A stretch of DNA of 64,000 nucleotides from Eledone cirrhosa. Lineage: Eukaryota. Positions within the stretch are counted from its first letter, which is position 1. Each line of letters begins with the position of its first letter. Positions 4,951 through 36,569 of the stretch are shown here, one piece after another. The stretch covers positions 9,796,001-9,860,000 of the forward strand of contig OZ024757.1 of assembly GCA_964016885.1 (NCBI GenBank), given 5' to 3'. The position numbers and the translations under genes were made by a program. A model generated the notes under the pieces. The model made no database searches and was not told the DNA's origin. It worked only from the letters and a program-made list of their open reading frames with translations.

Positions 4951-5095
4951 ATATATATATATATATGGAAAGTTATATTTAAATTGTTGGGTTACAACTA
5001 GTAAATATTAATAACTGATATAAAAGCACTCGACAAGTATTTGGAGTATATTTACGATATTAAATAAATGGAAACTATATTTATAAAACCATATT

Positions 5096-5161
5096 TATTT
5101 CGTTATATATATTTCAGGGATATCATATTAACAATATGCTATGCCTTCCTCAGACAAAATA
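5096..5161 (-). ncRNA. Type I hammerhead ribozyme (PLE pLTR), mirror copy
   Basis: Exact reverse complement of 8355-8420. Confidence 0.75.
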
Positions 5162-5983
5162 CAATATAAACAGTTTTATAGATAAATAGATTTGACATAC
5201 CGTACAACATCGACTTGTATTTGAAAAGTTGAATTGGCAGTGAAAAAATTGTAAACAGAAAGAAAGAAAGAGAGAAAAAAAAAGAAAGAAAGACAGAAAA
5301 CGAAGAAAAAGAAGAAAAAGAAGAGATGCATGGAACAAAATAGAGAGATGGAAAGATAGATAAAGAGAAGAACTTCATGTAAAGAAACAGAGAGAGATAT
5401 ATATAGAGAGAGGAAATAGATAGAGATAGATATATATATAGAAAAATATGTAGTTGGACATCCGTTGAGTAAACGTATCAATGATACATTTATTTATTTA
5501 TTTATTTATTTAGCCCTAGTATTAATGTAAGGGAGATATATGTGGTTAGGAGAGAAACCAGCAGTTATATAGAGAGAAAAATGAAAAGTAACCAGACATA
5601 GGCGAGGCATATAAACCCTATGTTTTAATGTAGAAGTATTAATATGTATAAAAAATATGTATAAAAACCAGGCACTATATTGAAAATATCAGTATTCCTG
5701 AATGAGACACGTATCCATAATGTGTGAAAAGTAATGATCTTATGTTTAGTTTTAAAAAATTCATATGTTTATATGATAACTACAAACATCGATGTGAATT
5801 TACATGATGCTATAAAAATTTAAGTATACACATATGTGTATATATATACACATATATATATATAGAGTCTATATTACTACTATTCTTGTCTTTACTCTAC
5901 AAGATTATCTATCAAGCAGAAATAGAGAGCAGATTTCAATATATTAATAAAAAATATATCAGAAACAAAAACCAAAAAACAAC

Positions 5984-6016
<33 letters not shown>

Positions 6017-7499
6017 ATAATAAAATAGAAAACTAAAAAATGTAAAACTAAAAAATATTACGAAAAAAATATTACATATTAAAAATATTACATATTAAAA
6101 ATAAAAATATTAGAAAATACTACAATAATAAAAATAAACCACAAAGATCAACCCTTCAAAATTAATTGACAATATATTGCCAAGTTCATTATAAGCATCA
6201 AAGTCGAAAACAGATAAAGCTCAGAATTATTTATCAAATCGCATTTAGCAAAAATCATTTCAAAAAGTTTAGGATGCCCATTTGGTCTACATGTGTTCTT
6301 ATATTTAATATAGAAGTTTATCTAGTGTAACGTTTATTCGAAATATTTGGAGCATCAACTTTTAGGGTAGTTTAATTTTCCATGAAGAATGTTTAAATAA
6401 AAATAAAAATAAAAAGAAGAATAAAAAGAAGAAATCGAAAGATTTATCGGCTAGTTTCCCAAATACTTATAAATCAAACTAAGTATACTACATTTTAAAT
6501 TTAAATTTATATTTATAAGTTGAGTTTAATCTATGTTTGCAGCAACTGAATACATTTGTCCGTAGATTAAGGGAATTTTTAGATTTTAGTATAAAGAATA
6601 TCTCCTCTGCGCAGAGGTCACATGTCTCAGAGGATGAATTAAAAGGAATTCCTCTTGAGACTATATTCCAAGCCGTCGAATATCTAACGTTATCTAGCTT
6701 AAGTTGCCAGAGTACGCCTGATAGTGCCGTTGAAGATTTTTTGCTTGGATCTGTGAAAGAATTCTTGTGGTTATTATAGCGAAGTTTAAATTCCGTCGAT
6801 GTGGAACCGACGTAGTTAAAAGAATTAGAATCAGTTTTAACATTACAATTGTATACTATATTTTTAACTAAGCAGTTGTTATTTAACGGACATTTAGATC
6901 TATCTCTACAGTTACATTTGTTAACTTGTATATTATTTATGCTATTATCACTAGGTTTTAAGTTCCTATTATTTATTCTATTAATATTTTATGCTAAATT
7001 TTTGGTGGATGAGTAGGTTAATTTTATAGTATGTCTATTGAAAATTGAGTGATACCTATGTGTTCTAGGGAAGCGATTATCAAGAGCTTTAAAAAATAGT
7101 TTAGCGATGTGGGTTTTAATGTTTAGTGAGAAAGGGGGGGCAAACCAAATTATGTTCCTAGTTCTATTTCTTTTTTGGCCCTTGGAATTATTGTAATGCT
7201 TTCTATTATAGTTGTTAATTTTTTAAAGCTCTTGATAATCGCTTCCCTAGAACACATAGGTATCACTCAATTTTCAATAGACATACTATAAAATTAACCT
7301 ACTCATCCACCAAAAATTTAGCACAAAATATTAATAGAATAAATAATAGGAACTTAAAACCTAGTGATAATAGCATAAATAATATACAAGTTGTAGTATT
7401 TTCTAATATTTTTATTTTTAATATGTAATATTTTTAATATGTAATATTTTTTTCGTAATATTTTTTAGTTTTCTATTTTTTAGTTTTCTATTTTATTAT

Positions 7500-7532
<33 letters not shown>

Positions 7533-8354
7533 GTTGTTTATTGGTTTTTGTTTCTGATATATTTTTTATTAATATATTGAAATCTGCTCTCTATTTCTGC
7601 TTGATAGATAATCTTGTAGAGTAAAGACAAGAATAGTAGTAATATAGACTCTATATATATATATGTGTATATATATACACATATGTGTATACTTAAATTT
7701 TTATAGCATCATGTAAATTCACATCGATGTTTGTAGTTATCATATAAACATATGAATTTTTTAAAACTAAACATAAGATCATTACTTTTCACACATTATG
7801 GATACGTGTCTCATTCAGGAATACTGATATTTTCAATATAGTGCCTGGTTTTTATACATATTTTTTATACATATTAATACTTCTACATTAAAACATAGGG
7901 TTTATATGCCTCGCCTATGTCTGGTTACTTTTCATTTTTCTCTCTATATAACTGCTGGTTTCTCTCCTAACCACATATATCTCCCTTACATTAATACTAG
8001 GGCTAAATAAATAAATAAATAAATAAATGTATCATTGATACGTTTACTCAACGGATGTCCAACTACATATTTTTCTATATATATATCTATCTCTATCTAT
8101 TTCCTCTCTCTATATATATCTCTCTCTGTTTCTTTACATGAAGTTCTTCTCTTTATCTATCTTTCCATCTCTCTATTTTGTTCCATGCATCTCTTCTTTT
8201 TCTTCTTTTTCTTCGTTTTCTGTCTTTCTTTCTTTTTTTTTCTCTCTTTCTTTCTTTCTGTTTACAATTTTTTCACTGCCAATTCAACTTTTCAAATACA
8301 AGTCGATGTTGTACGGTATGTCAAATCTATTTATCTATAAAACTGTTTATATTG

Positions 8355-8420
8355 TATTTTGTCTGAGGAAGGCATAGCATATTGTTAATATGATATCCCT
8401 GAAATATATATAACGAAATA
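8355..8420 (+). ncRNA. Type I hammerhead ribozyme (PLE pLTR)
   Basis: UAUUUUGU-CUGAGGA-[AGGCAUAGCAUAUU guu AAUAUGAUAUCCCU]-GAAA-UAUAUAU-A^-ACGAAAUA. Stem I is 8 bp, the core is intact and stem III is a short palindrome. Predicted cut at 8412/8413. Confidence 0.78.
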
Positions 8421-8460
8421 AATATGGTTTTATAAATATAGTTTCCATTTATTTAATATC

Positions 8461-8461
<1 letters not shown>

Positions 8462-8544
<83 letters not shown>
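8462..8544. repeat. (TA)n microsatellite, PLE insertion site
   Basis: About 40 perfect TA units. Confidence 0.95.
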
Positions 8545-8547
<3 letters not shown>

Positions 8548-8960
8548 AAGAGAGAGAGAGATGCTTTGTACGGCTTTTGGAGGAAGGAGTGACCAGCAGT
8601 ACGTTGTTCGGTATTATTACGAAAAGGTATAGCAGAGAATCCCGCGTGAACTAACAGCTCGGGAGGAAATTGCTTATCTCGAACATTCATTCGCCATCGT
8701 TCTTGTCAACGCTCCGTTTTTTTGGTATTCGTTGGTCTACAGTTTGATGAATGGCGCACAAAGGGTTAATGTTTATTGGCAAGAAGTTTTTTGAATAATA
8801 AAAGACGGGTTAAAGCAACCTACAATGTATCTGTATATATATATCTATATATATATCTATATATATCTATATATATATAAATGTAAGTATGTACGTACAT
8901 GCATGTATACAGACGTACAGTAGTATGTATATATATATATATATACATACATGCACACAT

Positions 8961-9058
8961 ATATGTACGTATGGGTTTACCGAACATTTATTAGACAAAC
9001 CGAACATTTATTAGAGATACCGAACATTATAATAAATGTTCGGTCAACCCATACGTAC

Positions 9059-9062
<4 letters not shown>
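8961..9062. mobile_element. Small palindromic MITE-like element with internal 20-bp repeats
   Basis: 33-bp arms ATATGTACGTATGGGTTTACCGAACATTTATTA / TAATAAATGTTCGGTCAACCCATACGTACATAT (1 mismatch). ACCGAACATT occurs three times at 20-bp spacing. Confidence 0.55.
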
Positions 9063-9092
<30 letters not shown>

Positions 9093-9259
9093 ATGTGTGT
9101 ATATATATACATGCTACTGTATGTCTGTATACTTGTATGTATGTACTTATACATACTTACATTTAAGTATATTTTCCGCCTACACATAAATATAGTAACA
9201 TTTTTAATAGAAATACTATTAAAATTTCTTACTCTACGACTCCTAACCTTGCACACAAC

Positions 9260-10790
9260 ATCACAGCTTCAAATTTAGCTAAACTACCTAGCCGTAGGAA
9301 CACGTGCAACCCTGTAGTTAGTACTAACTGTAATTGTAGGAATCGGGCTGATTGCCCCCTATCCGGAAAATGCCTCTCTAGTAACATTGTCTACAAATGT
9401 AAGGTTGTAACACCCACGTCCCGTAGGGCCTACACAGGGTTAACCGCCAATAGTTTCAAGCAGCGTCTTTACTTGCATACCCATTCTTTTCGTTACCCTC
9501 TAAGAAGGAATATGACGTCACTTTCAGCTTATATCTGGAGTCTAAAAGACAACCACACCCAATATAAGTTACACTGGGAGATCCTAGCTAGGGCTAGATC
9601 GTATAACGGAAATAAAAGACCATGTGACCTCTGCGCCGCTGAGGCCCTGGAAATACTCTACGCTACAGACCACATCTTAAACAAAAAATCTGAGGCAATT
9701 TCGGCTTGTAAACATAAATTGCACAAAACTTTCCTGTATTACAGCCCCACGTTATACCCTAACGGATAGCACGATCTATACATGGATATTTTACGTCTTG
9801 ATGTGGGAGCTAAGTATATGTTTTGTTTATTCCTTTACTTATTTGCATAGGTAAGTATATATTACCCGTATGTTTTGTGAAGGTATGTATACCTTCTCGT
9901 ACGTATATTTGACTGTTATAGCGTATAATTTTTACATATTCTGGTATTTAGGGTTTGGCTATGTATATACGGGAGTTTTTCGTCCGCGTGAGTGTGTAGG
10001 TTCGTACGTATGGTGGGTGTGTGTATATGTGTACTTCTTGTTTTAGTTGACTTACGTCTCCTAACATTCGTGTATTTATATGTAGGTATGCGTGTGCGCT
10101 TGTTATATACGTATTTATTTACTTATATACGTTTATATAATTATTTATTTATTTGTACACAAACATACACACACACACATATTTATATGTGCGTGGTTTT
10201 GTATACCCATGGTAAGGTTTTGCGTATGCTTGTGTATGTACGTATCTGTTTGCGTGTATGTATTTATTTGTTTCTATTACTTCTGTATTGTATTTATTTA
10301 CTTTGTTCTTAACTCTGTAGCGGAGATTCATTTGGTCTCCTAGTTAGAATTTTAGTCTACGACTTCTGCTATACCATTTACGTGGTTTTGTCTTTGCGTG
10401 CTATTGTTCTCCACGCTCCACATATGACTTATTATCTTCGTTTTTTCGTTCATTGCCAGAGAACGTCTTTATGCACCACTTAAGAGAACATTAGTCTACG
10501 ACCTCTTTTATACCATAAACGTGGTTTTGTCTTTGCGCGTAATTGTTTTTCACCGCTCCTATTAATGACGTATTATTCGTTTTTTCCCGTTCTTTGCCAG
10601 CGAACGTTACCACGAACCAAAGTATCGTCTTCCTGTCTTCCTCCGGTTGCAATGTTTTTTTAAATATCCAGTTCTGCGTTTACAGATTGACTTTGTTAGT
10701 TTCAGAAGATCCCGTTAAGGGTGAAAGCAGCGATTATTTGCTTAAACTTTAATCTGTTATTTTAATAAATATTTGCTCTACGGTTCTTAT
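9260..10790 (+). mobile_element. Second Penelope-like (Hydra-type) family, 3' fragment (GIY-YIG C-terminus plus 3' region)
   Basis: Reads CNCRNRADCPLSGKCLSSNIVYKC...YTGLTANSFKQRLYLH...W...CDLC...ILNKKSE...CKH to the stop at 9769. A ~150-bp tandem repeat at 10340-10620 is followed by a pLTR-like end. Confidence 0.78.
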
Positions 10791-17788: not shown

Positions 17789-17845
<57 letters not shown>

Positions 17846-17973
17846 AAAGTTTTATTTAAAATTGTTGGGTTACAACAAGTAAATATTTTATAACTGATAT
17901 AAAGCACTCGACAAGTTTTGGGAATAGATATACGATATTAAACAAATGGAAACTATATTTATAAAACCATATT

Positions 17974-18039
17974 TATTTCATTATACATATTTCAGGGATA
18001 CCATATTAAAAATATGGCATGCCTTCGTCAGATAAAATA
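17974..18039 (-). ncRNA. Type I hammerhead ribozyme (PLE pLTR), mirror copy
   Basis: Reverse complement of 23792-23857. Confidence 0.78.
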
Positions 18040-18558
18040 CAATATATAAACAGTTTTATAAATAATTTTGACGTACCATATTATAAGCGACCATTATATT
18101 AGGAAGCTGTCTGGATAATGAATTGTTTATAATTATTTAGTTATAGTGTTAAGTACAGTTAGAAGAAAGACGGAGAGAAAGAAACGGAGAGAAAGAAAAG
18201 GAGAGAGAGTAAAAATATATAAATAGATAGGAGAAAGAAATAAGAGAGGCAAACGAAAGCAACAGATAAATAATAATTCCCCATACATATAGAGAAACTC
18301 AAGAGAGAGGGAGTCCTATATAGAGAGAGAAGGATAATAATTATTTAAAAGATAAAAATTATTTAAAAGATTTAGAAGACCCAGTGATTCTACGGATGCC
18401 CTTATATTTAGTATAGAAATTTATCTTGCGTAAAATTTAGAGTAGTTTATTACATCTTTGTTTATATTTAGGAAGAAGGTTTAAAAAGAAAAAGGTGAAG
18501 GAATCAAATGATTTATCGTCAGGTTTCATATATTAACTAAATTTCTTAATTAATTATA

Positions 18559-20724
18559 CTACATTTTAAATTTATATTTATATTTAAACGTTGAGTTCAA
18601 TCTATGTCTGCAGCAACTGAATAAATTACTCCTTAAATTAAGGAAATTTTTGGACTTTAATATAAAGAATACCTCCTCCACACAGAGATCACATGTCTCT
18701 GATGAGGAATTAAAAGGTATCCCTTTTGAGACAATATTCCAAAACATCGAATACTTAACATTATCTCGTTTAAGTTGCCAGAGTAGGCTTGATAGCGAAG
18801 TTGAGGATTTTTTGTTTGGATCTGTGAAAGAATTCTTATGATTATTGAAGCGAAGTTTAAATTCTGTCGAGGTGGAACCAACATAGTTGAAAGAATTTAA
18901 GTTAGTTTTAACATTACAATTGTATACTACATTTTTAACTAAGCAATTGTTATTTAACGGACAGTTAGATTTATTTCTACAGTTACAGTTATTTAATTGA
19001 ATATTGTTTGGGTTATTATTGGTATTTTGGTTAGGTTTTAAATTCCTATTATTAATTCTGTTAATATTTTGTGATAAATTTTTGGTGGACGAGTCAGTTA
19101 ATTTTATAGTATGTCTATTAAAAATTGAGTGATATTTATGTGTTCTAGGGAAGCGTTTGTCAAGAGCATTAAAGAATAGTTTAGCAATATGGGTTTTAAT
19201 ATTTAGTGAAAAAAAGGGGGGGGGGGCAAACCATATTATATTTCTAGTTCTATTTCTTTTTCGGCTTTTGGAATTATTGTAATGTTTTCTATTATAGTTG
19301 TTAATGTTGTTACCGTAATTAAAATTGTTATTATTTTGGTTAGTTTGCTTATTATTATCGATGTACTTAATTTTATCACTATATCCTGCTCTAGCTAACG
19401 CTTCATTGTAATACTGCGCTTTTTCATCAAAAATATTTTTATTAGATGAAATTCTTGAAATTCGTTCTTGAACAGAGTTCACTATAGTATTTTTAACAGA
19501 TCTGGGGTGATTAGAGTTAAAATTGAGATAATTCAAGTTCTCATTTAGTTTGTGAAATGGATAGTGAAGACATGTGTTGAGATTTAGTGTTACATCCAGG
19601 AAATTGACTATTCTATGGTTATTCTCTATTTCTATTTTTAGATTAAGGTAATTAAAAAAATTGTATAATTTGTTTTCTTTTTCTATTTAGTTCACAGTTA
19701 TTATTTTCAATAAGTAAAAGCATGTCATCACGATATAATCCTCCGGTTACACCTGGTATTTTTTTATGCAGCGAATTAATTATAAATAGGTCCACAAGAT
19801 CCGTTACCTGAGCTGAGTCATATGATCCCATAGTTATGCTGAAATTATTATTTCTATCTGGCCTAGTCCATAGTTGGTTATTAAATTCTATCAATGTTTT
19901 CCTTGCCGATAATATAATGTGCATTTCATTGCTAGTTAGGTCTGTATGTTTAAATGCGTAATTTAGTGCCTTATTCAGTAGATTAGGAGTGATAGATGAA
20001 TAGTTGTTAGCAATATCAAGTTGAATAAACTTATTATTATAGTTATATTTAATTTCTTTAAACCACTCAATAACCTCACCAGTCCCCTTCCATAACTTTA
20101 AGTAAGGTAAATTATGTAAGTTTTTAATTTACCCTGTCTAGAATGTTTTTGCTAAGTTTTCCCATATCAGATTTTGATGGTGCAATCAATCTGACTGGCA
20201 AATCATTTTCAAAATTTCTTTTTTGATCTTTCATATTGATTTTGGGTTTCCTAGGCATGAAGGGTTGTGTTTTATTCTCAATGTCTAATTCATGCATTAT
20301 ACAAGATGCCTCTGTATTCATTTTTTCCAGTTCGTCCTTACTTGCTACCTTGTACTTTTTCCTTAGTTCTTTCAATATAAGGCCGTTATACATGTCCTTT
20401 TGTACTCCATAAAGGTTATTGGTTTTGTCCGATTTCACTAAGATCTTCTCTGTTTTTTCCAAGCCTTCAATATTATCCTTAATGCATCTTAGATAGTCCT
20501 GGCCTTTGAAGTTTCTCTTGAATTTGATTCCTTGGATGATAGAAATTATATCGTTTTCAAAATCCATTAATAGTTTGTTGGGGGTGGATTTTTTTTAGAT
20601 TTGAAAATTTTATCCAAATCTGAAACATTTTCATTTAGATTAGATTTATCAAAGTGGAAGGCACGCCACCTGATTCTTCTTATAAAAGAGTCTGATTTTT
20701 CTATTAATTGTTTAATAAAGTCAT
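18559..20724 (-). pseudogene. PLE RT/GIY-YIG ORF, frameshifted
   Basis: Pieces 20124-20567 (KSDKTNNLY, PVRLI), 19652-19924 (ITMGS, LYRDDM) and 18559-19536 (GIY-YIG). The N-terminal KQLIEKSDSFIRRIRWRAFHF lies at ~20650-20720. Confidence 0.88.
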
Positions 20725-20736
20725 GTAACGGACCTT

Positions 20737-21969
20737 GTGGGCCTATTTATAATTAATTCGCTGCATAGAAAAATACCAGGTGTAACCGGAGGATTATATC
20801 GTGATGACATGCTTTTACTTATTGAAAATAATAACTGTGAACTAAATAGAAAAAGAAAACAAATTATACAATTTTTTAATTACCTTAATCTAAAAATAGA
20901 AATAGAGAATAACCATAGAATAGTCAATTTCCTGGATGTAACACTAAATCTCAACACATGTCTTCACTATCCATTTCACAAACTAAATGAGAAATTGAAT
21001 TATGTCAATTTTAATTCTAATCACCCCAGATCTGTTAAAAATACTATAGTGAACTCTGTTCAAGAACGAATTTCAAGAATTTCATCTAATAAAAATATTT
21101 TTGATGAAAAAGTGCAGTATTACAATGAAGCGTTAGCTAGAGCAGGATATAGGGATAAAATTAAGTACATCGATAATAATAAGCAAACTAACCAAAATAA
21201 TAACAATTTTAATTACGGTAACAACATTAACAACTATAATAGAAAACATTACAATAATTCCAAAAGCCGAAAAAGAAATAGAACTAGAAATATAATATGG
21301 TTTGCCCCCCCCCCCTTTTCACTAAATATTAAAACCCATATTGCTAAACTATTCTTTAATGCTCTTGACAAACGCTTCCCTAGAACACATAAATATCACT
21401 CAATTTTTAATAGACATACTATAAAATTAACTGACTCGTCCACCAAAAATTTATCACAAAATATTAACAGAATTAATAATAGGAATTTAAAACCTAACCA
21501 AAATACCAATAATAACCCAAACAATATTCAATTAAATAACTGTAACTGTAGAAATAAATCTAACTGTCCGTTAAATAACAATTGCTTAGTTAAAAATGTA
21601 GTATACAATTGTAATGTTAAAACTAACTTAAATTCTTTCAACTATGTTGGTTCCACCTCGACAGAATTTAAACTTCGCTTCAATAATCATAAGAATTCTT
21701 TCACAGATCCAAACAAAAAATCCTCAACTTCGCTATCAAGCCTACTCTGGCAACTTAAACGAGATAATGTTAAGTATTCGATGTTTTGGAATATTGTCTC
21801 AAAAGGGATTCCTTTTAATTCCTCATCAGAGACATGTGATCTCTGTGTGGAGGAGGTATTCTTTATATTAAAGTCCAAAAATTTCCTTAATTTAAGGAGC
21901 AATTTATTCAGTTGCTGCAGACATAGATTGAACTCAACGTTTAAATATAAATATAAATTTAAAATGTAG
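20737..21969 (+). CDS. PLE RT C-terminus/thumb plus GIY-YIG endonuclease (5'-truncated copy, open frame)
   Basis: YRDD, FLDV, SNHP, CNCRNKSNC (CxCx5C linker), VYNC...YVGST, KLRFNNH, CDLC and CRH motifs. As recalled, these match Hydra-clade PLEs. The start is an internal GTG created by the inversion junction. Confidence 0.85.
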   Translation: MGLFIINSLHRKIPGVTGGLYRDDMLLLIENNNCELNRKRKQIIQFFNYLNLKIEIENNHRIVNFLDVTLNLNTCLHYPFHKLNEKLNYVNFNSNHPRSVKNTIVNSVQERISRISSNKNIFDEKVQYYNEALARAGYRDKIKYIDNNKQTNQNNNNFNYGNNINNYNRKHYNNSKSRKRNRTRNIIWFAPPPFSLNIKTHIAKLFFNALDKRFPRTHKYHSIFNRHTIKLTDSSTKNLSQNINRINNRNLKPNQNTNNNPNNIQLNNCNCRNKSNCPLNNNCLVKNVVYNCNVKTNLNSFNYVGSTSTEFKLRFNNHKNSFTDPNKKSSTSLSSLLWQLKRDNVKYSMFWNIVSKGIPFNSSSETCDLCVEEVFFILKSKNFLNLRSNLFSCCRHRLNSTFKYKYKFKM

Positions 21970-23544
21970 TATAATTAATTAAGAAATTTAGTTAATATAT
22001 GAAACCTGACGATAAATCATTTGATTCCTTCACCTTTTTCTTTTTAAACCTTCTTCCTAAATATAAACAAAGATGTAATAAACTACTCTAAAATGTATAT
22101 GCTCCCAATGTATTAAATACATTTTACGCAAGATAAATTTCTATACTAAATATAAGGGCATCCGTAGAATCACTGGGTCTTCTAAATCTTTTTAATAATT
22201 TTTGTTAAATAATTTTTGTTTTTTATTTGTTTTTTACTCTAATAGCTTCTAACTAACTTTGCAATATATTGTTTGAAATATAGGAAGGATAGATTTCTGT
22301 AGTAAATATATGAAGCATATTGTTTTTGGCCTGAGATACTCTATAGTGTGTTGAAAGTATTTTAATGTTTTGATGTTTCTGTGCTGATATATTGATATTT
22401 GATTATCTCTATACAAAGGCCATATGGGTATTAACATGCATATAGAAAGTTTATAGAGTTTATTTTATGTGTTCATGTGTCTGTATATGTGCGTAAAGAT
22501 GCTGGAAAACTCACGCAGATATTTTATATATACATATATATATATATTTAGGTATGGTTCTGTATATGTTACAGATATGCATAATATTAAATACATGAAC
22601 GGTAATCATATATGTGAGGACATGAATATTAATCGTATATTTTATGTATATATACAGTGAAATTTTTATAACACAAGACATTTTTTTATGACACAAGAAA
22701 TTATAGAGTTGATCAAGTGAAGTCATATGTATGTCTATATTATTGACTAGAGTTAGACATAATTTTCTCTTTTTTCTTTTTTCAGGAAGTACATATACGT
22801 GTATATATATATACATATATATTTCCGTATTTTTATAAATAGGGTAATTTTTTGAAGGTTTTATCTTAGTTTTTGGTATATTAACCTCAGAGTTTTAAAC
22901 TAAACATATGGTCATTATTGAACAATGTTATTTTCTCATATTATATATATCTATGTCTCATTCATGAATATTGATATTTGCATTTTTATTATCCATTTCA
23001 TATGAATTGATAATTCAAATTGATATGACATGACGTAAAGATGTAACTGTATCCTTCTCTCTCTATATAGCACTTTCTCCTCTCTCTTGAGTTTATCTTT
23101 ATGTATGATGAATTATTATGTATCTGTCGCTTTCGTTTGCCTCTCTTATTTCTCTCTTGTTTCTTTTTCACTTCCTCTTATCTATTTATATTCTCTCTCT
23201 CTCTGTTTTTTCTCCTCCCCCCTCTCTCTCTCCGTTTTTTCTTTTTTCTTTCTCTCCGTCTTTTTTCTATCTGTGCTTAACACTATAACTAAATAATTAT
23301 TATCCTTCTCTCTATATATAGGACTCCCTCTCTCTTGAGTTTCTCGATATGTATGGGGAATTATTATTTATCTGTTGCTTTCGTTTGCCTCTCTTATTTC
23401 TTTCTCCTATCTATTTATATATTTTTTCTCTCTCTCCTTTTCTTTCTCTCCGTTTCTTTCTCTCCGTCTTTCTTCTAACTGTGCTTAACACTATAACTAA
23501 ATAATTATAAACAATTCATTATCCAGACAGCTTCCTAATATAAT

Positions 23545-23721
23545 TGTTTCTACTTTAGGCACAAGGCCAGCAATTACCCAGTGCATTACTGGTACTTTAT
23601 TTTATCGACCCCGTAAGGATGAAAGGCAAAGTCAACCTCGGCGGGATTTGAACTCAGATCGTAAAGGGACGTAACTATGCTGGAAAGCATGGCGTCCGAC
23701 CCTCTACCGATACTGCCAATC
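23545..23721 (-). mobile_element. tRNA-derived SINE with 17-bp TSD, inserted in one PLE arm
   Basis: TSD CAGCTTCCTAATATAAT at 23528-23544 and 23722-23738. A-box TGGCAGTATCGG, B-box GAGTTCAAATCC and core GCCTTTCATCC..CGGGGTCGATAAAAT. The mirror arm (~18093-18110) has the empty site. Confidence 0.9.
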
Positions 23722-23791
23722 CAGCTTCCTAATATAATGGTCGCATATAATATGGTACATCAAAATTATTTATAAAACTGTTTATATATTG

Positions 23792-23857
23792 TATTTTATC
23801 TGACGAAGGCATGCCATATTTTTAATATGGTATCCCTGAAATATGTATAATGAAATA
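23792..23857 (+). ncRNA. Type I hammerhead ribozyme (PLE pLTR)
   Basis: UAUUUUAU-CUGACGA-[AGGCAUGCCAUAUU uuu AAUAUGGUAUCCCU]-GAAA-UAUGUAU-A^-AUGAAAUA. Predicted cut at 23849/23850. Confidence 0.8.
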
Positions 23858-23897
23858 AATATGGTTTTATAAATATAGTTTCCATTTGTTTAATATC

Positions 23898-23936
<39 letters not shown>

Positions 23937-25095: not shown

Positions 25096-25488
25096 ACATA
25101 TAGATAATTGTTTCTACTTTAGGCACAAGGCCAACAATTACCCAGTGCATTACTGGTACTTTATTTTATCGACCCCGTAAGGATGAAAGGCAAATCAACC
25201 TCGGCGGGATTTGAACTCAGATCGTAAAGGGACGTAACTATGCTGGAAAGCATGGCGTCCGACCCTCTACCGATACTGCCAATCCACATATAGATAATTG
25301 TTTCTACTTTAGGCACAAGGCCAGCAATTACCCAGTGCATTACTGGTACTTTATTTTATCGACCCCGTAAGGATGAAAGGCAAATCAACCTCGGCGGGAT
25401 TTGAACTCAGATCGTAAAGGGACGTAACTATGCTGGAAAGCATGGCGTTCGACTCTCTACCGATACTGCCAATCCACATATAGATAAT
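25096..25488 (-). mobile_element. Tandem SINE dimer with triplicated 13-bp TSD
   Basis: ACATATAGATAAT occurs at 25096, 25286 and 25476 (period 190), separating two SINE copies. Confidence 0.9.
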
Positions 25489-25509
25489 GACTTTGATTTA
25501 TAGTTTCTG

Positions 25510-25757
25510 TTCTAGTTAGTGACTTAGTAATATATTATTGTTGATCCCTTATAGTTAGTGATTTAGTGATATATAGTTACTGTTGGTACCTTATAGTTAG
25601 TGATTTAGTGATATATAGTTACTGTTGGTACCTATTGGTTAGTGATTTAGTGATATATAGTTACTGTTGGTACCTTATAGTTAGTGATTTAGTGATATAT
25701 AGTTACTGTTGGTACCTTATAGTTAGTGACTTATAGAACCTGTTGGTACCTTATAGT
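25510..25757. repeat. 42-bp minisatellite, about 5-6 units
   Basis: Unit TTAGTGATTTAGTGATATATAGTTACTGTTGGTACCTTATAG. TGTTGGTACC recurs at 25581, 25623, 25665 and 25707. Confidence 0.9.
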
Positions 25758-26153: not shown

Positions 26154-28153
26154 AACCATTTTTCTTGCGCCGTGAAAGCACAAACAATATGTAACGACAA
26201 AACATTACCTACGAGCCTGGTCAAAAACCCCTTCAGCCAGTCGCCCGTATTTTCTCTTGTAATCTTAATTGAATTATTTCATTTCTCTTGGAATGCCAGC
26301 TTAATTCACTTCTTAACCGTTGTTAATAAATAATGTAAAACCAAGCTAAAGTCGTTGTCGATATTTCCTATCATATCTTTCTACCTAACCTGGTTCCTCG
26401 TGGCGACATTACAACTCTCTAAATACTTCTCCGCTAAATTGGTGACTTATATTCAACAAAGAGAAACATTCATTTCCTTTAAAGTCATGGATTAATGGTT
26501 AGTGTGTTGGGCTCATCACTATTGTAAGATTGTGATGAGAAGTGTGTTGTCCTTGAGCAAGACATTTTATTTCATGTTACTCCAGTCCACATGGGTGGTA
26601 AAGATGAGTTATGATGACACTGGTGCCAAGCTGAATCAATATTTGTCTTTTTCTTAGATAACATCAGTGATGTGTAGAGAAGATGCATGGGTGACTTCTT
26701 GTCTTCTACAAAAACACCTTGACCTGGCTTGCACCTTGGAGTGGAACTTTTCATGCACAAACCTGTGGTCAGGATCATATATTTTATTATACTATCTTCT
26801 CTTCTACTTTATTATTAAATTCCTTTCTATAGGGGAACATTCCCCATTGGTTAAAATTGATTTAGAAAAATGCAACCTTCGTCTTCTCGGATGCATGGTA
26901 AATTTTCAAGACTCATTTTAAGAAAAAAAACAGCATCTTTCACACTTGTAAATATGTTAATTGTATAGTAGTTTTTTCTTTTTCTTTTTTTATTTCTTTT
27001 TTATTTTATTTACAATTGCATATGTTAATGTGAAAATTCATTTTGTGAGATATTATTCCAAACCAAAGCCCGAAAGTCTTAAAAGATGAAAGTTCATGTT
27101 ACACAAACAGAAAGTAGAAATATCTTGCAAATATTTTTAATTTATGTAAACTAAATAGATAGTTTAATTAGATAAACTTTTTTTTTTGTTTTTGGTTTAA
27201 ATCATTCATATTAAGCATGGCATTATGTTTTCTTTATATTAATCCACCCACCTACATATAAAAATAAAATAAAACAAATTATATCATACAAAATATTGAT
27301 TTTGTAGTTTACAGTATTTTGAAAAAAGAAAAAAAAATCTCTTACTAACACAAAATATAGTTTTACTGGAAAATCATGGAAACATTTTTATATCAATTGT
27401 TAAAATAATACAGTCTGTCTGTTAGTAGACTAGACATCAACTCCTGATTATATTTAATAAAAGAAACCTTTTATACAGCTAATACCATATATACACACAC
27501 ATGCATAGCCCCCCAATTTCTCAGTCTAATTGTAGTTGTTTTGTAACTTCCTTTCTGTGTTCCCCTCCCCCCTTTCTTATGATAATCATTGCTAATGTGC
27601 TTTGCATATTAACATTTTTTTTAAATATTTTTTTTTAAAGAAATAAAAAATATATATATTGGAAACTTTTTTTAAATAAAGAATAAAATAAATAAAATCC
27701 CAACAAATTCTTTTTTGAAATAATCAAAAATAAATTACAATTAAAAAGGCTTTAACTCTTGTTTCCTTATATCTCTAGTCATCCTCCAAATGTGCTATCA
27801 CCATGCTCAGCAATTTGAAATGTTACTAACTCACATTAAATCTTTATTATTAGTCAAGCCATAAGAGATTAGAAATTATTACATAAGCAAGTAATTCTCT
27901 CTGTTCAGACACTAAAATATTTGGGATGTATTACACTATTAGCTAAAAAGGTATAATATGCCCATAAGGCAAAAAAAAAAAATAAATAAATAAAAACGCC
28001 ACAAAACACATGATGCCTAACTTATTGTAAAGTTAAGGAAATGTAGTATTGATATATATTGGAACCATATATATATATATATATATAATATATATATATA
28101 ATATATATATATAGACACACACACTCATGTAAATATATATATATATATATATA

Positions 28154-28342
28154 TAATATAAGATCAAAAGATGGTTAAAAGAGTTCCGAGTATTTTATTA
28201 TGCGCATTTCAAAAACAAATATCATCATAGGATGATATCTGCGTTCTCATCAGATAAAATAGGGATACATGATATGAAGCTTAAAAAACACTTGTGAATA
28301 GTGAAGTTTTAAATCAACATAAGATCTTTTGATCTTATATTA
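28154..28342. mobile_element. 189-bp ORF-less hammerhead element with 19-bp terminal inverted repeats
   Basis: TAATATAAGATCAAAAGAT (28154-28172) / ATCTTTTGATCTTATATTA (28324-28342). Adjacent to (TA)n and contains the HHR at 28191-28261. Confidence 0.7.
28191..28261 (-). ncRNA. Type I hammerhead ribozyme
   Basis: Minus strand: UAUUUUAU-CUGAUGA-[GAACGCAGAUAUCAUC cuau GAUGAUAUUUGUUUUU]-GAAA-UGCGCAU-A^-AUAAAAUA. Perfect 8-bp stem I, canonical core, self-complementary AUGCGCAU stem III. Confidence 0.85.
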
Positions 28343-28354
28343 TTTATACTCCAG

Positions 28355-28540
28355 GGCGGAGGATTGGCAGTATCGGTAGAGGGTTGGACGCCATGCTTTG
28401 ATGTATAGAGTTACGGTCCTTGCCATTCTGAGTTCAAATCACGCCGAGGTTAACTTTGCCTTTCATCCTTTCGGGGTCGATAAAATAAAGTACCAGTAAT
28501 ACACTGGGTAATTGCTGGCCTTGTGCCAAATGTAGAAACA
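28355..28540 (+). mobile_element. tRNA-derived SINE, full length, 16-bp TSD
   Basis: TSD ATTATTTATACTCCAG at 28339-28354 and 28541-28556. A and B boxes present. Confidence 0.9.
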
Positions 28541-28671
28541 ATTATTTATACTCCAGTCCTACAAACTGTAGAGTGCTACTTATCCGATATTTGCATTGCT
28601 TTATTGTGCTACAATAAAACTCACCTCCTACATATATATATACACACACACACATATAAATACACACACGC

Positions 28672-34585: not shown

Positions 34586-35909
34586 TAATTAAGGTTTTGG
34601 ACTCATGGTTGTAAAATAAGGAGTTTTGATTCTTGAACCTGGCCACACATTGACTTGAGCAAGATTTTTCATTTTATGTTGTTCCAGTCCACTCAGCTTA
34701 AATAAAAATGTGCTTGTATGTCAAAGGGCCAACCATGTTACACAGAATCTCCCTAAAGACTATGTTAAGGATGCATATGTCTGAGGAATGCTCAGCCACT
34801 TGTTAATTTCATTATTAAGCTGTTCCATTCTTCAAACAACTGGAACACTCATTGTCGAAACTGAAAGAGGTCCAACAGCAATGCATGTGTGTGTGTGTGT
34901 GTGTATGTATGCATACATGTATGTATGTCTTCTATTTAGAAAAATTATATGAATTCTTCCAGTAAAGAAGGAGCTAGTTTCTACCAAAGGACCAAATTCT
35001 CTTGATAGAATTTAAATAACAAAAATGGTGAGTGTCATTTGTTGAACTTTAGAAAAGTCTTGCATATCTTTACTGCTACATTCAGATTGTTTTTGTAAAG
35101 TATCACTTAGATTTTTACTAACATGTATGTATGAATAATCAGATGAAGAAAGAAGCTGGTCTCTAAGAAACAAAGGCTCCATTGTTAGAGTTTAAACAAC
35201 ACCAGACTAAAGAAACAATTGTTAATACGTTGAATAAACCCTATTGTACAGCCGACCACGTTATTCTTCACTCATTTACTATTATTATTCAAAGAACCGC
35301 TTACTGAGGAACTGTCTTGAATTGGCCACCCAACTAAGGAAACTTCTTGTTGAGTCAAACAACGCCGAATGTTAAAACTATCCTCGATACAGAGTAATCA
35401 TAACCTCTACTAGGATTACCTTAAATGATATCTCGTTAACTTATATATTTAGAATGTTAGGGAGTGACACTCTAGTTGATATATATAATAATAATAAAAA
35501 AAAGTAAAAAATGCTAATGGGATTTTTTTATAGAATAACAGCAAAACATTTATTTACAAAAAAGAAATTTATCATACCGGTTTTAGCCACGTGGGCTTCT
35601 TCATACTACGGAAGTAATAACATTTATAATGGAGTTGAGTTGGATAATAATAAGAATATGGTATAAAATAACATGCTTTACATACATATATATAGAAGTT
35701 GGTGGTGTTGACTATAACTGCAGCAGTGGTAGTGAAAGTAACAGAGGAGAACTAACTTGTTCTATGTTCTTGGTGTTGACCTCGACAGTTGAGGTCAACA
35801 CCATATATATATATATATATATAGGTATTAGAGGTGCAAATTAATTGCTTCCGTAGCCTGTATGCCAAGATGAGCACTTGATGTTCGTGGGGAGCAGAGT
35901 ATCAATAAT

Positions 35910-36092
35910 TGTTTCTACTTTTGGCACAAGACCAGCAATTACCCAGTGCATTACTGGTACTTTATTTTATCGACCCCGTAAGGATGAAAGGCAAAGTTAA
36001 CCTCGGCGGGATTTGAACTCAGAATGGCAAGGGCCGTAACTCTATGCGTCAAAGCATGGCGTCCGACCCTCTACCGATACTGCCAGTCCACC
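35910..36092 (-). mobile_element. tRNA-derived SINE, 18-bp TSD
   Basis: TSD GAGCAGAGTATCAATAAT at 35892-35909 and 36093-36110. Confidence 0.9.
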
Positions 36093-36162
36093 GAGCAGAG
36101 TATCAATAATAACAACAAATAGGGAACAAAGAATCAGTATTACATCATATACATATTTAATT

Positions 36163-36254
36163 ACATATTACATATGTTTCACTGTCGATCAGCTCGAGGA
36201 ACGATCGATTAATGATCGATGCTGACTCTGGAATCGGAAGCTCCTCAGATATGT
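36163..36254 (-). ncRNA. Type I hammerhead ribozyme with long stem II
   Basis: Minus strand: ACAUAU-CUGAGGA-[~60-nt imperfect stem II GCU...AGU]-GAAA-CAUAUGU-A^-AUAUGU. 6-bp stem I, palindromic ACAUAUGU stem III, GUA triplet. Confidence 0.72.
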
Positions 36255-36375
36255 GTTCACATATCTAACTTAATAGCACCGCCTGGCGAAGTCTTTCAAA
36301 TTAGGATTTGGACACCATGGCCCTCTCAAGTAGAGAGTTATTGTTTACTGTAGAGTAATGAGTCTACACATGAAC

Positions 36376-36467
36376 ATATATCAGAGGAGCTTCCAATTCC
36401 AGAGTCAGGATCGATCATTATTTGATCGTTCCTCGAGCTGATCAACAGTGAAACATATGTAATATGT
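36376..36467 (+). ncRNA. Hammerhead mirror copy with core change (CAGAGGA)
   Basis: Same fold as 36163-36254 but with U4 changed to A. Probably impaired. Confidence 0.55.
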
Positions 36468-36569
36468 AATTAAATATGTATATGATACAATACTGATTCT
36501 TTGTTCCCATATATTGTTATTATTATTATCATTATATATATATACACATTACCCACTCTACTACCCGAT

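What the first reader, a model, noticed from the sequence alone, without database searches (positions are those of the whole stretch)
28154..28342. 189-bp ORF-less element: a canonical hammerhead ribozyme between 19-bp terminal inverted repeats
Seen: the minus strand has a complete type I hammerhead (28191-28261; CUGAUGA/GAAA core, perfect 8-bp stem I, ~16-bp stem II, self-complementary AUGCGCAU stem III). It lies inside perfect 19-bp inverted ends, beside (TA)n. Apart from the core and the stem I strand UAUUUUAU, its sequence differs from the Penelope HHRs in this window. Known: Penelope pLTRs carry minimal type I HHRs that act as dimers through palindromic stem III, and retrozymes are non-autonomous HHR retroelements, usually in direct-repeat arrangement. 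Inference: this is either the smallest possible fold-back Penelope insertion product or a MITE-looking non-autonomous ribozyme retroelement that TIR-based annotators would mislabel as a DNA transposon.
Basis: partly seen in the sequence, partly recalled or inferred. Interest (0 to 1): 0.8.

Follow-up and report, generated by a model that had tools for sequence, protein, structure and literature searches.

The report
Truncated Penelope fold-back with hammerhead
The hammerhead-ribozyme motif and the 19-base inverted ends are real, but they are part of a short, likely dead, two-armed insertion scar of a very common Penelope-like jumping gene whose longer arm was split by a second repeat, which is an arrangement already described for these elements.

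Summary
The type I hammerhead motif (28261-28191, minus strand) and the perfect 19-bp inverted repeat are real and beyond chance. The 189-bp boundary is wrong. The right arm runs on into an 87-nt Penelope 'tail' (28343-28354 plus 28557-28631), split by a SINE whose 16-bp target duplication overlaps the repeat. Same-species runs show the body is a high-copy repeat, show the tail joined without the SINE, and show most copies running past 28321 into other upstream sequence. All 9 listed stem variants keep pairing on the minus strand. Three other fold-backs in the window have one tailed and one tail-less arm in (TA)n, two with Hydra-clade proteins. Best reading: a 5'-truncated, inverted insertion of a probably Hydra-clade Penelope family, a published arrangement that this scan also noted on other DNA (e1-9867701). 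One RAD stack has a near-identical junction, so a small mobile fold-back subfamily is not excluded (about 8%). The parent ORF, self-cleavage and expression were not seen. Interest low.

The parts
28134..28153 (.). (TA)10 microsatellite, left side of the likely target site; the exact boundary is ambiguous by a few bases
   Evidence: sequence
28154..28321 (-). long arm: 5'-truncated 3' end (pseudo-LTR) of a high-copy Penelope-like family, no tail on this side
   Evidence: high depth 28148-28321 in all 4 runs laid; loose ends at 28321 (X1 33 contigs, X11 460 reads) show that the family sequence goes on upstream
28191..28261 (-). type I hammerhead motif: 8-bp stem I, 16-position stem II, palindromic stem III, expected cut between 28199 and 28198
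   Evidence: activity not tested
28322..28323 (.). two-base junction between the arms, flanked by short matches to the near end (microhomology inferred)
   Evidence: loose ends at 28321; junction print
28324..28342 (+). short arm, part shared with the long arm = the reported 19-bp 'TIR'
28343..28354 (+). Penelope tail, first 12 nt
   Evidence: records that go past 28354 continue with the sequence at 28557 (X1 7 contigs, X4 1, X5 1)
28355..28540 (+). SINE-like repeat inserted into the tail; 16-bp target-site duplication 28339-28354 / 28541-28556
   Evidence: many window copies; TSD; the label SINE is inferred from size, copy number, TSD and lack of ORF
28557..28631 (+). Penelope tail, remaining 75 nt (87 nt in all)
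   Evidence: loose ends before 28146-28149; homology to the 89- and 91-nt tails of the neighbouring elements
28632..28642 (.). (AT)n run, right side of the likely target site

Best explanation
This is a two-armed fold-back made of a 168-bp hammerhead-bearing arm and an inverted arm of about 106 bp with a SINE-split tail, and it is likely a dead, 5'-truncated insertion product of a high-copy Penelope-like retroelement family, probably of the Hydra clade. Likely mechanism: the element's GIY-YIG endonuclease cut a (TA)n tract on both strands; each broken end primed reverse transcription on the element RNA, one from the near start site (no tail) and one from a site about 87 nt further downstream (tail); the first copy stopped after 168 nt, the second 19 nt past the near site; the two ends were joined head to head through short microhomology. 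The 19-bp 'TIR' is the stretch that both copies share. A SINE later inserted into the tail. The hammerhead is the family's ordinary pseudo-LTR ribozyme, predicted to cleave only as a dimer. Shown: anatomy, high copy number, tail continuity, run-on past 28321, order of SINE after fold-back (its TSD spans repeat and tail). Inferred: clade, two-ended priming, microhomology joining, ribozyme activity, inactivity of this copy.
For:: 3467 of 16.5 million contigs (X1), 257 of 0.76 million (X4), 3709 of 12.5 million reads (X11) and 54 of 8.3 million contigs (X5, another organism) lie on 28140-28375. X11 mean depth falls from 353+175 (28316-28323) to 11+4 (28324-28331), and 460 reads leave the reference at 28321. 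Loose letters before 28146-28149 (X1 19 contigs, X11 1189+89 reads, X5 3 contigs) match the reverse complement of the DNA behind the SINE, and records passing 28354 continue at 28557, so arm and tail are contiguous in other copies. Other pivots: 28178 (X4 1 contig, X1 table 5c), 28218/28287 (X11 5 reads); 16-bp TSD; tail of 87 nt aligns with the 89- and 91-nt tails of the elements at 5047-8469 and 17924-23907 (z 4.2 and 4.5; 2 of 6316 other window segments score as well); those two and the one at 36105-36524 have one tailed and one tail-less arm, in (TA)n; neighbours' ORFs carry DKT, CxCX5C, CxxC and CxH and lack the two cysteines in GIY-YIG, the Hydra diagnostics of PMC8557442 section 11; 9 of 9 listed stem variants keep the pair on the minus strand; the 5 informative ones become G-U there and would be A-C on the plus strand. 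Inverted 5'-truncated copies, one-sided tails and (TA)n targets: PMC8557442; both-strand cutting and two RT start sites that define the tail: PMC11167929.
Against: The parent ORF was not seen: no genome is held and loose ends give 30 letters at most, so the family may be non-autonomous and its clade rests on tail homology to neighbours. 80 reads from 2 start places in X11 join the body at 28321 to the tailed arm with 11 bases fewer (0 in X1, X4, X5), so a near-identical junction exists a second time, as an allele, a hotspot product or a subfamily member. RAD reads come in stacks, so read counts are not locus counts; summed contig depth is not a copy number. Only 40 of 89 variant rows, 24 of 214 loose-end rows and 24 of 3935 pieces were shown. 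The variant table is not phased, so no two-sided compensatory change within the family is shown; the coin-flip chance for 5 informative sites is about 0.03. The tail (87 nt) is longer than the 30-40 bp in the papers read.
Confidence: 0.82

Rival explanations
1. Same fold-back scar, but the parent is a non-autonomous, ORF-less Penelope derivative (pseudo-LTR plus tail, a few hundred bases) that borrows the Hydra-type enzyme. This changes the parent, not the nature of this locus, and overlaps with the best explanation.
For: Very high abundance of the 3' region and no ORF seen; non-autonomous PLE derivatives are described (MRC1 in PMC8557442; animal retrozymes as PLE derivatives, 10.64898/2026.07.22.740005).
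Against: Heavy 5' truncation alone gives the same picture (PMC4209133: most minimal HHRs are single, probably truncated PLEs); neighbouring families with homologous tails have ORFs; no tandem arrangement at this locus.
Confidence: 0.25
2. The fold-back unit itself (body to 28321, short inverted arm, tail) was copied again and forms a small MITE-looking ribozyme family.
For: A second, near-identical junction in X11 (80 reads, 2 starts, 11 bases left out at 28321); by depth these reads seem to reach about 28354 and not the SINE (table 2; my reading of bin means). RAD samples few loci, so meeting such a junction is notable.
Against: The two junctions differ by 11 bases; that variant is absent from X1, X4, X5; reads across 28324-28331 are about 15 against about 530 just before; the ribozyme strand ends without the tail, the stretch that the lizard element's RT starts in (inferred from PMC11167929); this copy has private changes at 28188, 28189, 28229 against nearly all other records; the body end resembles the near end (7 of 10 bases), which would favour repeated joining there.
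Confidence: 0.08
3. A true DNA-transposon MITE (19-bp TIR, TA target) that captured a hammerhead.
For: Perfect 19-bp inverted repeat beside TA.
Against: The repeat is the family's own 3' end and continues into the tail on one side only; most copies have no second arm at 28324; same one-sided tail in three neighbouring fold-backs.
Confidence: 0.02

Closest known systems
Inverted 5'-truncated insertion units of EN+ Penelope-like elements, Hydra clade (Craig et al. 2021, PMC8557442; includes Hydra-1_Obim from Octopus bimaculoides)
   Same: Inverted 5'-truncated arm, tail at one end only, hammerhead in the pseudo-LTR, (TA)n target; neighbours with homologous tails carry the Hydra protein motifs.
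   Different: Extreme shortness (arms of 168 and about 106 bp); tail 87 nt rather than 30-40 bp; hammerhead stems unlike the Hydra-1_oBim row of File S2; no ORF at this locus.
Minimal type I hammerheads of metazoan PLEs (Cervera and De la Pena 2014, PMC4209133)
   Same: Type I topology, intact core, small palindromic helix III predicted to work as a dimer, mostly single motifs from truncated PLEs, pairs on opposite strands 100-700 bp apart already noted.
   Different: Longer helices here: stem I 8 bp against 4-5, stem II about 16 positions against 7-8; no unpaired base at the 5' end of stem II.
Non-LTR retrozymes (Cervera and De la Pena 2020, PMC7229834; Li et al. 2026 preprint 10.64898/2026.07.22.740005)
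   Same: Short, non-coding, type I hammerhead, PLE-related.
   Different: Retrozymes are head-to-tail tandem repeats with two ribozymes that release a circular monomer; this locus has one ribozyme, inverted arms and no tandem unit.
MITEs (non-autonomous DNA transposons; definition recalled)
   Same: Short, non-coding, apparent inverted ends next to TA.
   Different: The right repeat is not terminal, ends are not fixed across copies.

Membership tests
Type I hammerhead ribozyme (PLE-type) | Core CUGANGA / GAAA / UH with three helices, helix I open | tested here: met
   0.00 per shuffled window; no Rfam hit
Type I hammerhead ribozyme (PLE-type) | Structure kept across copies, core invariant | tested here: met
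   rows shown (40 of 89): 9 of 9 stem I/II variants keep the pair, only N7 varies in the core, one X11 stack changes the stem III loop (28205); stem I has an A-U to G-C change in the neighbour at 5161-5096. Not phased.
Type I hammerhead ribozyme (PLE-type) | Palindromic helix III allowing a dimer | tested here: met
   palindrome, self-duplex -10.5 kcal/mol; predicted dimer 10.9 kcal/mol below two monomers (prediction only)
Type I hammerhead ribozyme (PLE-type) | Self-cleavage | not testable with these tools
   needs an in vitro assay
Penelope-like element insertion unit | 5'-truncated copy with an inverted 5'-truncated copy at its 5' end | tested here: met
Penelope-like element insertion unit | Tail extension at one end only | tested here: met
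   (87 nt, longer than published 30-40 bp)
Penelope-like element insertion unit | Parent with RT and GIY-YIG ORF | tested here: inconclusive
   no genome; metagenome scans empty; upstream continuation seen only as loose ends
Hydra clade | DKT, CxCX5C linker, no CCHH, CxxC and CxH | tested here: inconclusive
   met for neighbouring elements; this family's own protein not seen, link is tail homology
Hydra clade | Insertion into (TA)n | tested here: met
   TA runs at both outer ends
Non-LTR retrozyme | Head-to-tail tandem units each with a hammerhead | tested here: not met
   single motif, no second copy in the window; a joint that goes back between two ribozymes is not among the joints shown
Non-LTR retrozyme | Circular RNA monomer | not testable with these tools
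   no RNA run was available to lay
MITE | Inverted repeats terminal on both sides, fixed ends across copies | tested here: not met
   run-on past 28321, tail beyond 28342, other pivots

The most novel reading that the evidence does not exclude
The fold-back (ribozyme arm, short inverted arm, tail) is itself a mobile unit: a small MITE-looking, hammerhead-bearing retroelement family with a recurrent junction at 28321, copied in trans by a Hydra-clade Penelope enzyme. The near-identical junction in run X11 would be a second member.
Probability: 0.08. Interest if true: 0.65.

Novelty: new member of a known kind. Interest (0 to 1): 0.2.

Why it matters
As it stands, little: it is one more copy of a known insertion shape, from a family not found in the papers searched. 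It is a tidy example for two practical points. Tiny Penelope fold-backs can look like MITEs to scans for inverted ends. And the unequal arms fit the idea that both broken target ends start copying, from two different sites on the RNA; the roughly 80-90 nt tails with a shared short motif in four elements of this window give a ready substrate to test that in a Hydra-clade element.

Tried and rejected
Whole-genome search: no genome held. Rfam, whole window and 28150-28640: no hammerhead family hit; hits were miRNA models on microsatellites. BLASTN of the 189-mer against the window: no second copy, best outside hit E 0.11. Hammerhead pattern in metagenome contigs: 0. Looser pattern in viral contigs: 7 loci, none with a stem I, taken as chance. 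Neighbour's protein in metagenome contigs: 399 pattern matches, 0 confirmed. Pfam on four neighbouring ORF pieces: no hit at the curated cut-off. Protein homologue search: 56 relatives of 729-937 aa, almost all unnamed. Sequencing runs: no RNA holder listed; 4 of the 13 listed runs were laid. First tail test used boundaries off by 1 to 9 bases and was weaker (6 and 35 of 2000 shuffles; 15 of 6320 window segments); it was repeated with corrected boundaries. Motif search in the held supplement of PMC8557442: 0 hits for four motifs; I did not check whether consensus sequences are in that file. Paper searches showed no description of this family or of hammerhead MITE families; they match words only and miss most subscription papers, and the preprint's supplements were not viewable. 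Our-findings look-ups by sequence, by genome and by Hydra words gave nothing. Rejected: MITE reading, tandem retrozyme reading, chance motif.

Full report
Observation. The minus strand holds a complete type I hammerhead motif at 28261-28191: 8-bp stem I, CUGAUGA, a stem II of 16 positions (15 paired), GAAA, the palindrome AUGCGCAU, and the expected cut between 28199 and 28198. My motif scan with stem I of at least 8 found 5 sites in the window against a mean of 0.00 in 50 shuffled windows; with at least 6, 6 against 0.02. The 19-bp inverted repeat is perfect and none arose in 20 shuffled windows. Rfam does not score the motif. The palindrome self-pairs at -10.5 kcal/mol and a dimer is predicted 10.9 kcal/mol below two monomers; this is a folding prediction, not activity.

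Surroundings. The window is AT-rich, microsatellite-rich animal-type DNA full of retroelements. The host is not given; the only named UniRef relative of a neighbouring protein is from Octopus bimaculoides, a partial match, so a cephalopod is a guess. The other five hammerhead motifs lie in three fold-backs: 5047-8469, 17924-23907 and 36105-36524. In each, one arm stops at a near end followed by (TA)n, and the other runs on for about 80-90 nt before (TA)n. The ORF pieces of the first two carry CxCX5C, CxxC and CxH and lack the paired cysteines within GIY-YIG, and the second has DKT: the Hydra-clade diagnostics of PMC8557442 section 11.

The real boundary. The repeat to the right of 28342 has a 16-bp target-site duplication, 28339-28354 and 28541-28556, which covers the last 4 bases of the inverted repeat and the next 12. 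It therefore inserted after, and into, the unit. With it set aside, 87 nt follow the right repeat before an (AT)n run at 28632. These align with the 89- and 91-nt tails of the two Hydra-type neighbours at 54 identities in 95 and 94 columns; 0 of 3000 shuffles reach either score, and 2 of 6316 other window segments score as well (a first try with wrong boundaries was weaker). A four-way alignment with the 36-kb element's tail shows a shared TCC...AGTGCT core.

Other copies. No genome is held, so I searched runs (13 listed, no RNA holder) and laid 4 of them on 28140-28375 at 80% likeness. Laid records: X1 3467 of 16.5 million contigs, X4 257 of 0.76 million, X11 3709 of 12.5 million RAD reads, X5 (another organism) 54 of 8.3 million. 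The body is thus a high-copy repeat; the tool's depths are not copy numbers and RAD reads come in stacks. Three results decide the reading. First, records that pass the left end continue into the reverse complement of the DNA behind the SINE (X1 19 contigs, X11 1189 and 89 reads, X5 3 contigs), and records that pass 28354 continue directly at 28557 (X1 7, X4 1, X5 1): the tail belongs to the family and is unbroken elsewhere. Second, at 28321 most records leave the reference into a shared upstream sequence (X1 33 contigs, X11 460 reads; X11 depth 353+175 falling to 11+4): 28321 is this copy's truncation point. Third, other fold-back pivots occur, at 28178 (X4, X1) and 28218/28287 (X11, 5 reads). 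Subfamilies with other 3' ends (28166) and other stem II sequences (28218-28243) also show.

Against. 80 X11 reads from 2 start places join the body at 28321 to the tailed arm with 11 bases fewer; X1, X4 and X5 show none. Bin depths suggest that they reach about 28354 and do not enter the SINE, but I could not see them singly. They may be another allele of this locus, an independent product of a favoured joining site (the body end matches the near end at 7 of 10 bases), or a member of a small amplified subfamily. Rarer junction variants would fall below the 3% listing limit, so their number is unknown. The parent ORF was not reached (empty).

Ribozyme conservation. Among the 40 variant rows shown (49 hidden), 9 fall in stems I and II and all 9 keep the pair on the minus strand; 5 turn a Watson-Crick pair into G-U and would be A-C mismatches on the plus strand, about 0.03 by a coin-flip null. 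In the core only N7 varies; one X11 stack changes the stem III loop. The table is not phased, so two-sided covariation within the family is not shown; between families stem I has one A-U to G-C change. This points to selection on the ribozyme fold in the parent lineage, not in this copy, which differs from nearly all records at 28188, 28189 and 28229.

Mechanism. Shown: two unequal inverted arms of the same family end, tail on one side, TA runs outside, later SINE. Inferred: the endonuclease cut (TA)n on both strands, each end primed copying from one of two start sites 87 nt apart, both copies aborted early (168 nt; tail plus 19 nt) and were joined head to head through microhomology. This follows the in vitro work on the anole element, which cuts and extends both strands and starts at two sites whose spacing is the tail, and whose hammerhead was not needed for insertion (PMC11167929, parts 1-2 of 4 read). 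A lone ribozyme with this helix III is expected to be inactive without a partner (PMC4209133, part 1 of 4 and passages).

Comparison. Inverted 5'-truncated copies, one-sided tails, pseudo-LTR hammerheads and (TA)n targets are described in PMC8557442 (passages, section 11 and rows of supplementary files S1 and S2 seen), which lists one octopus Hydra family with a different hammerhead. Opposite-strand hammerhead pairs and single motifs from truncated elements are in PMC4209133. Retrozymes need tandem units (PMC7229834, passages; preprint 10.64898/2026.07.22.740005, part 1 of 5), which this lacks. What differs from print: the extreme shortness, long stems, and tails of 80-91 nt. Five paper searches did not show this family.

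Verdict. Real ribozyme motif, real repeat, wrong boundary. New member of a known kind; interest 0.2. Novel case, a self-mobile fold-back subfamily: probability 0.08, interest 0.65 if true.

Noticed in passing
window 28339-28556 and 35892-36110: The same SINE-like repeat sits in the tail of two different Penelope fold-backs, about 12 nt past the near end, with TSDs of 16 and 18 bp that both begin with ATTATT on the element's sense strand; a third copy lies in the pseudo-LTR at 23540-23723. Possible target preference.
   Followed up: partly
window 4966-5054, 17842-17932, 28343-28631, about 35822-35909: Tails of four fold-backs are about 80-91 nt, longer than the published 30-40 bp, and share a short TCC...AGTGCT core; a candidate signal for the enzyme.
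   Followed up: partly
window 36105-36524: A 420-bp fold-back with a hammerhead whose stem II region is 61 nt (36254-36163, minus) and a damaged core in the opposite arm.
   Followed up: partly
window 8955-9068: A 110-bp hairpin element between TA runs with about 28-bp inverted arms and three internal repeats of about 19 nt, no hammerhead, 100 bp upstream of a Hydra-type endonuclease ORF piece at 9167-9769.
   Followed up: no
window 4951-5046 and 17829-17923: Two related Hydra-type families (about 80-87% alike) form nested inverted structures of 3.4 and 6 kb with arms 96-100% identical, so recent; the first has a second inner inversion at 6923-7392.
   Followed up: partly
window 28187-28190 and 28266-28271: Most copies carry bases at 28188-28189 that could extend stem I by a second short helix across a bulge; this copy has lost them (variants; pairing read by eye).
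   Followed up: no
window 25096-25475 and 25493-25744: Head-to-tail pair of the SINE (190-bp spacing, 98% alike) followed by a 42-bp tandem repeat of about six units.
   Followed up: no
window 39900-63400: Dense cluster of broken non-LTR retrotransposon ORFs (RT and endonuclease-like pieces) of several kinds (kinds judged by eye).
   Followed up: no
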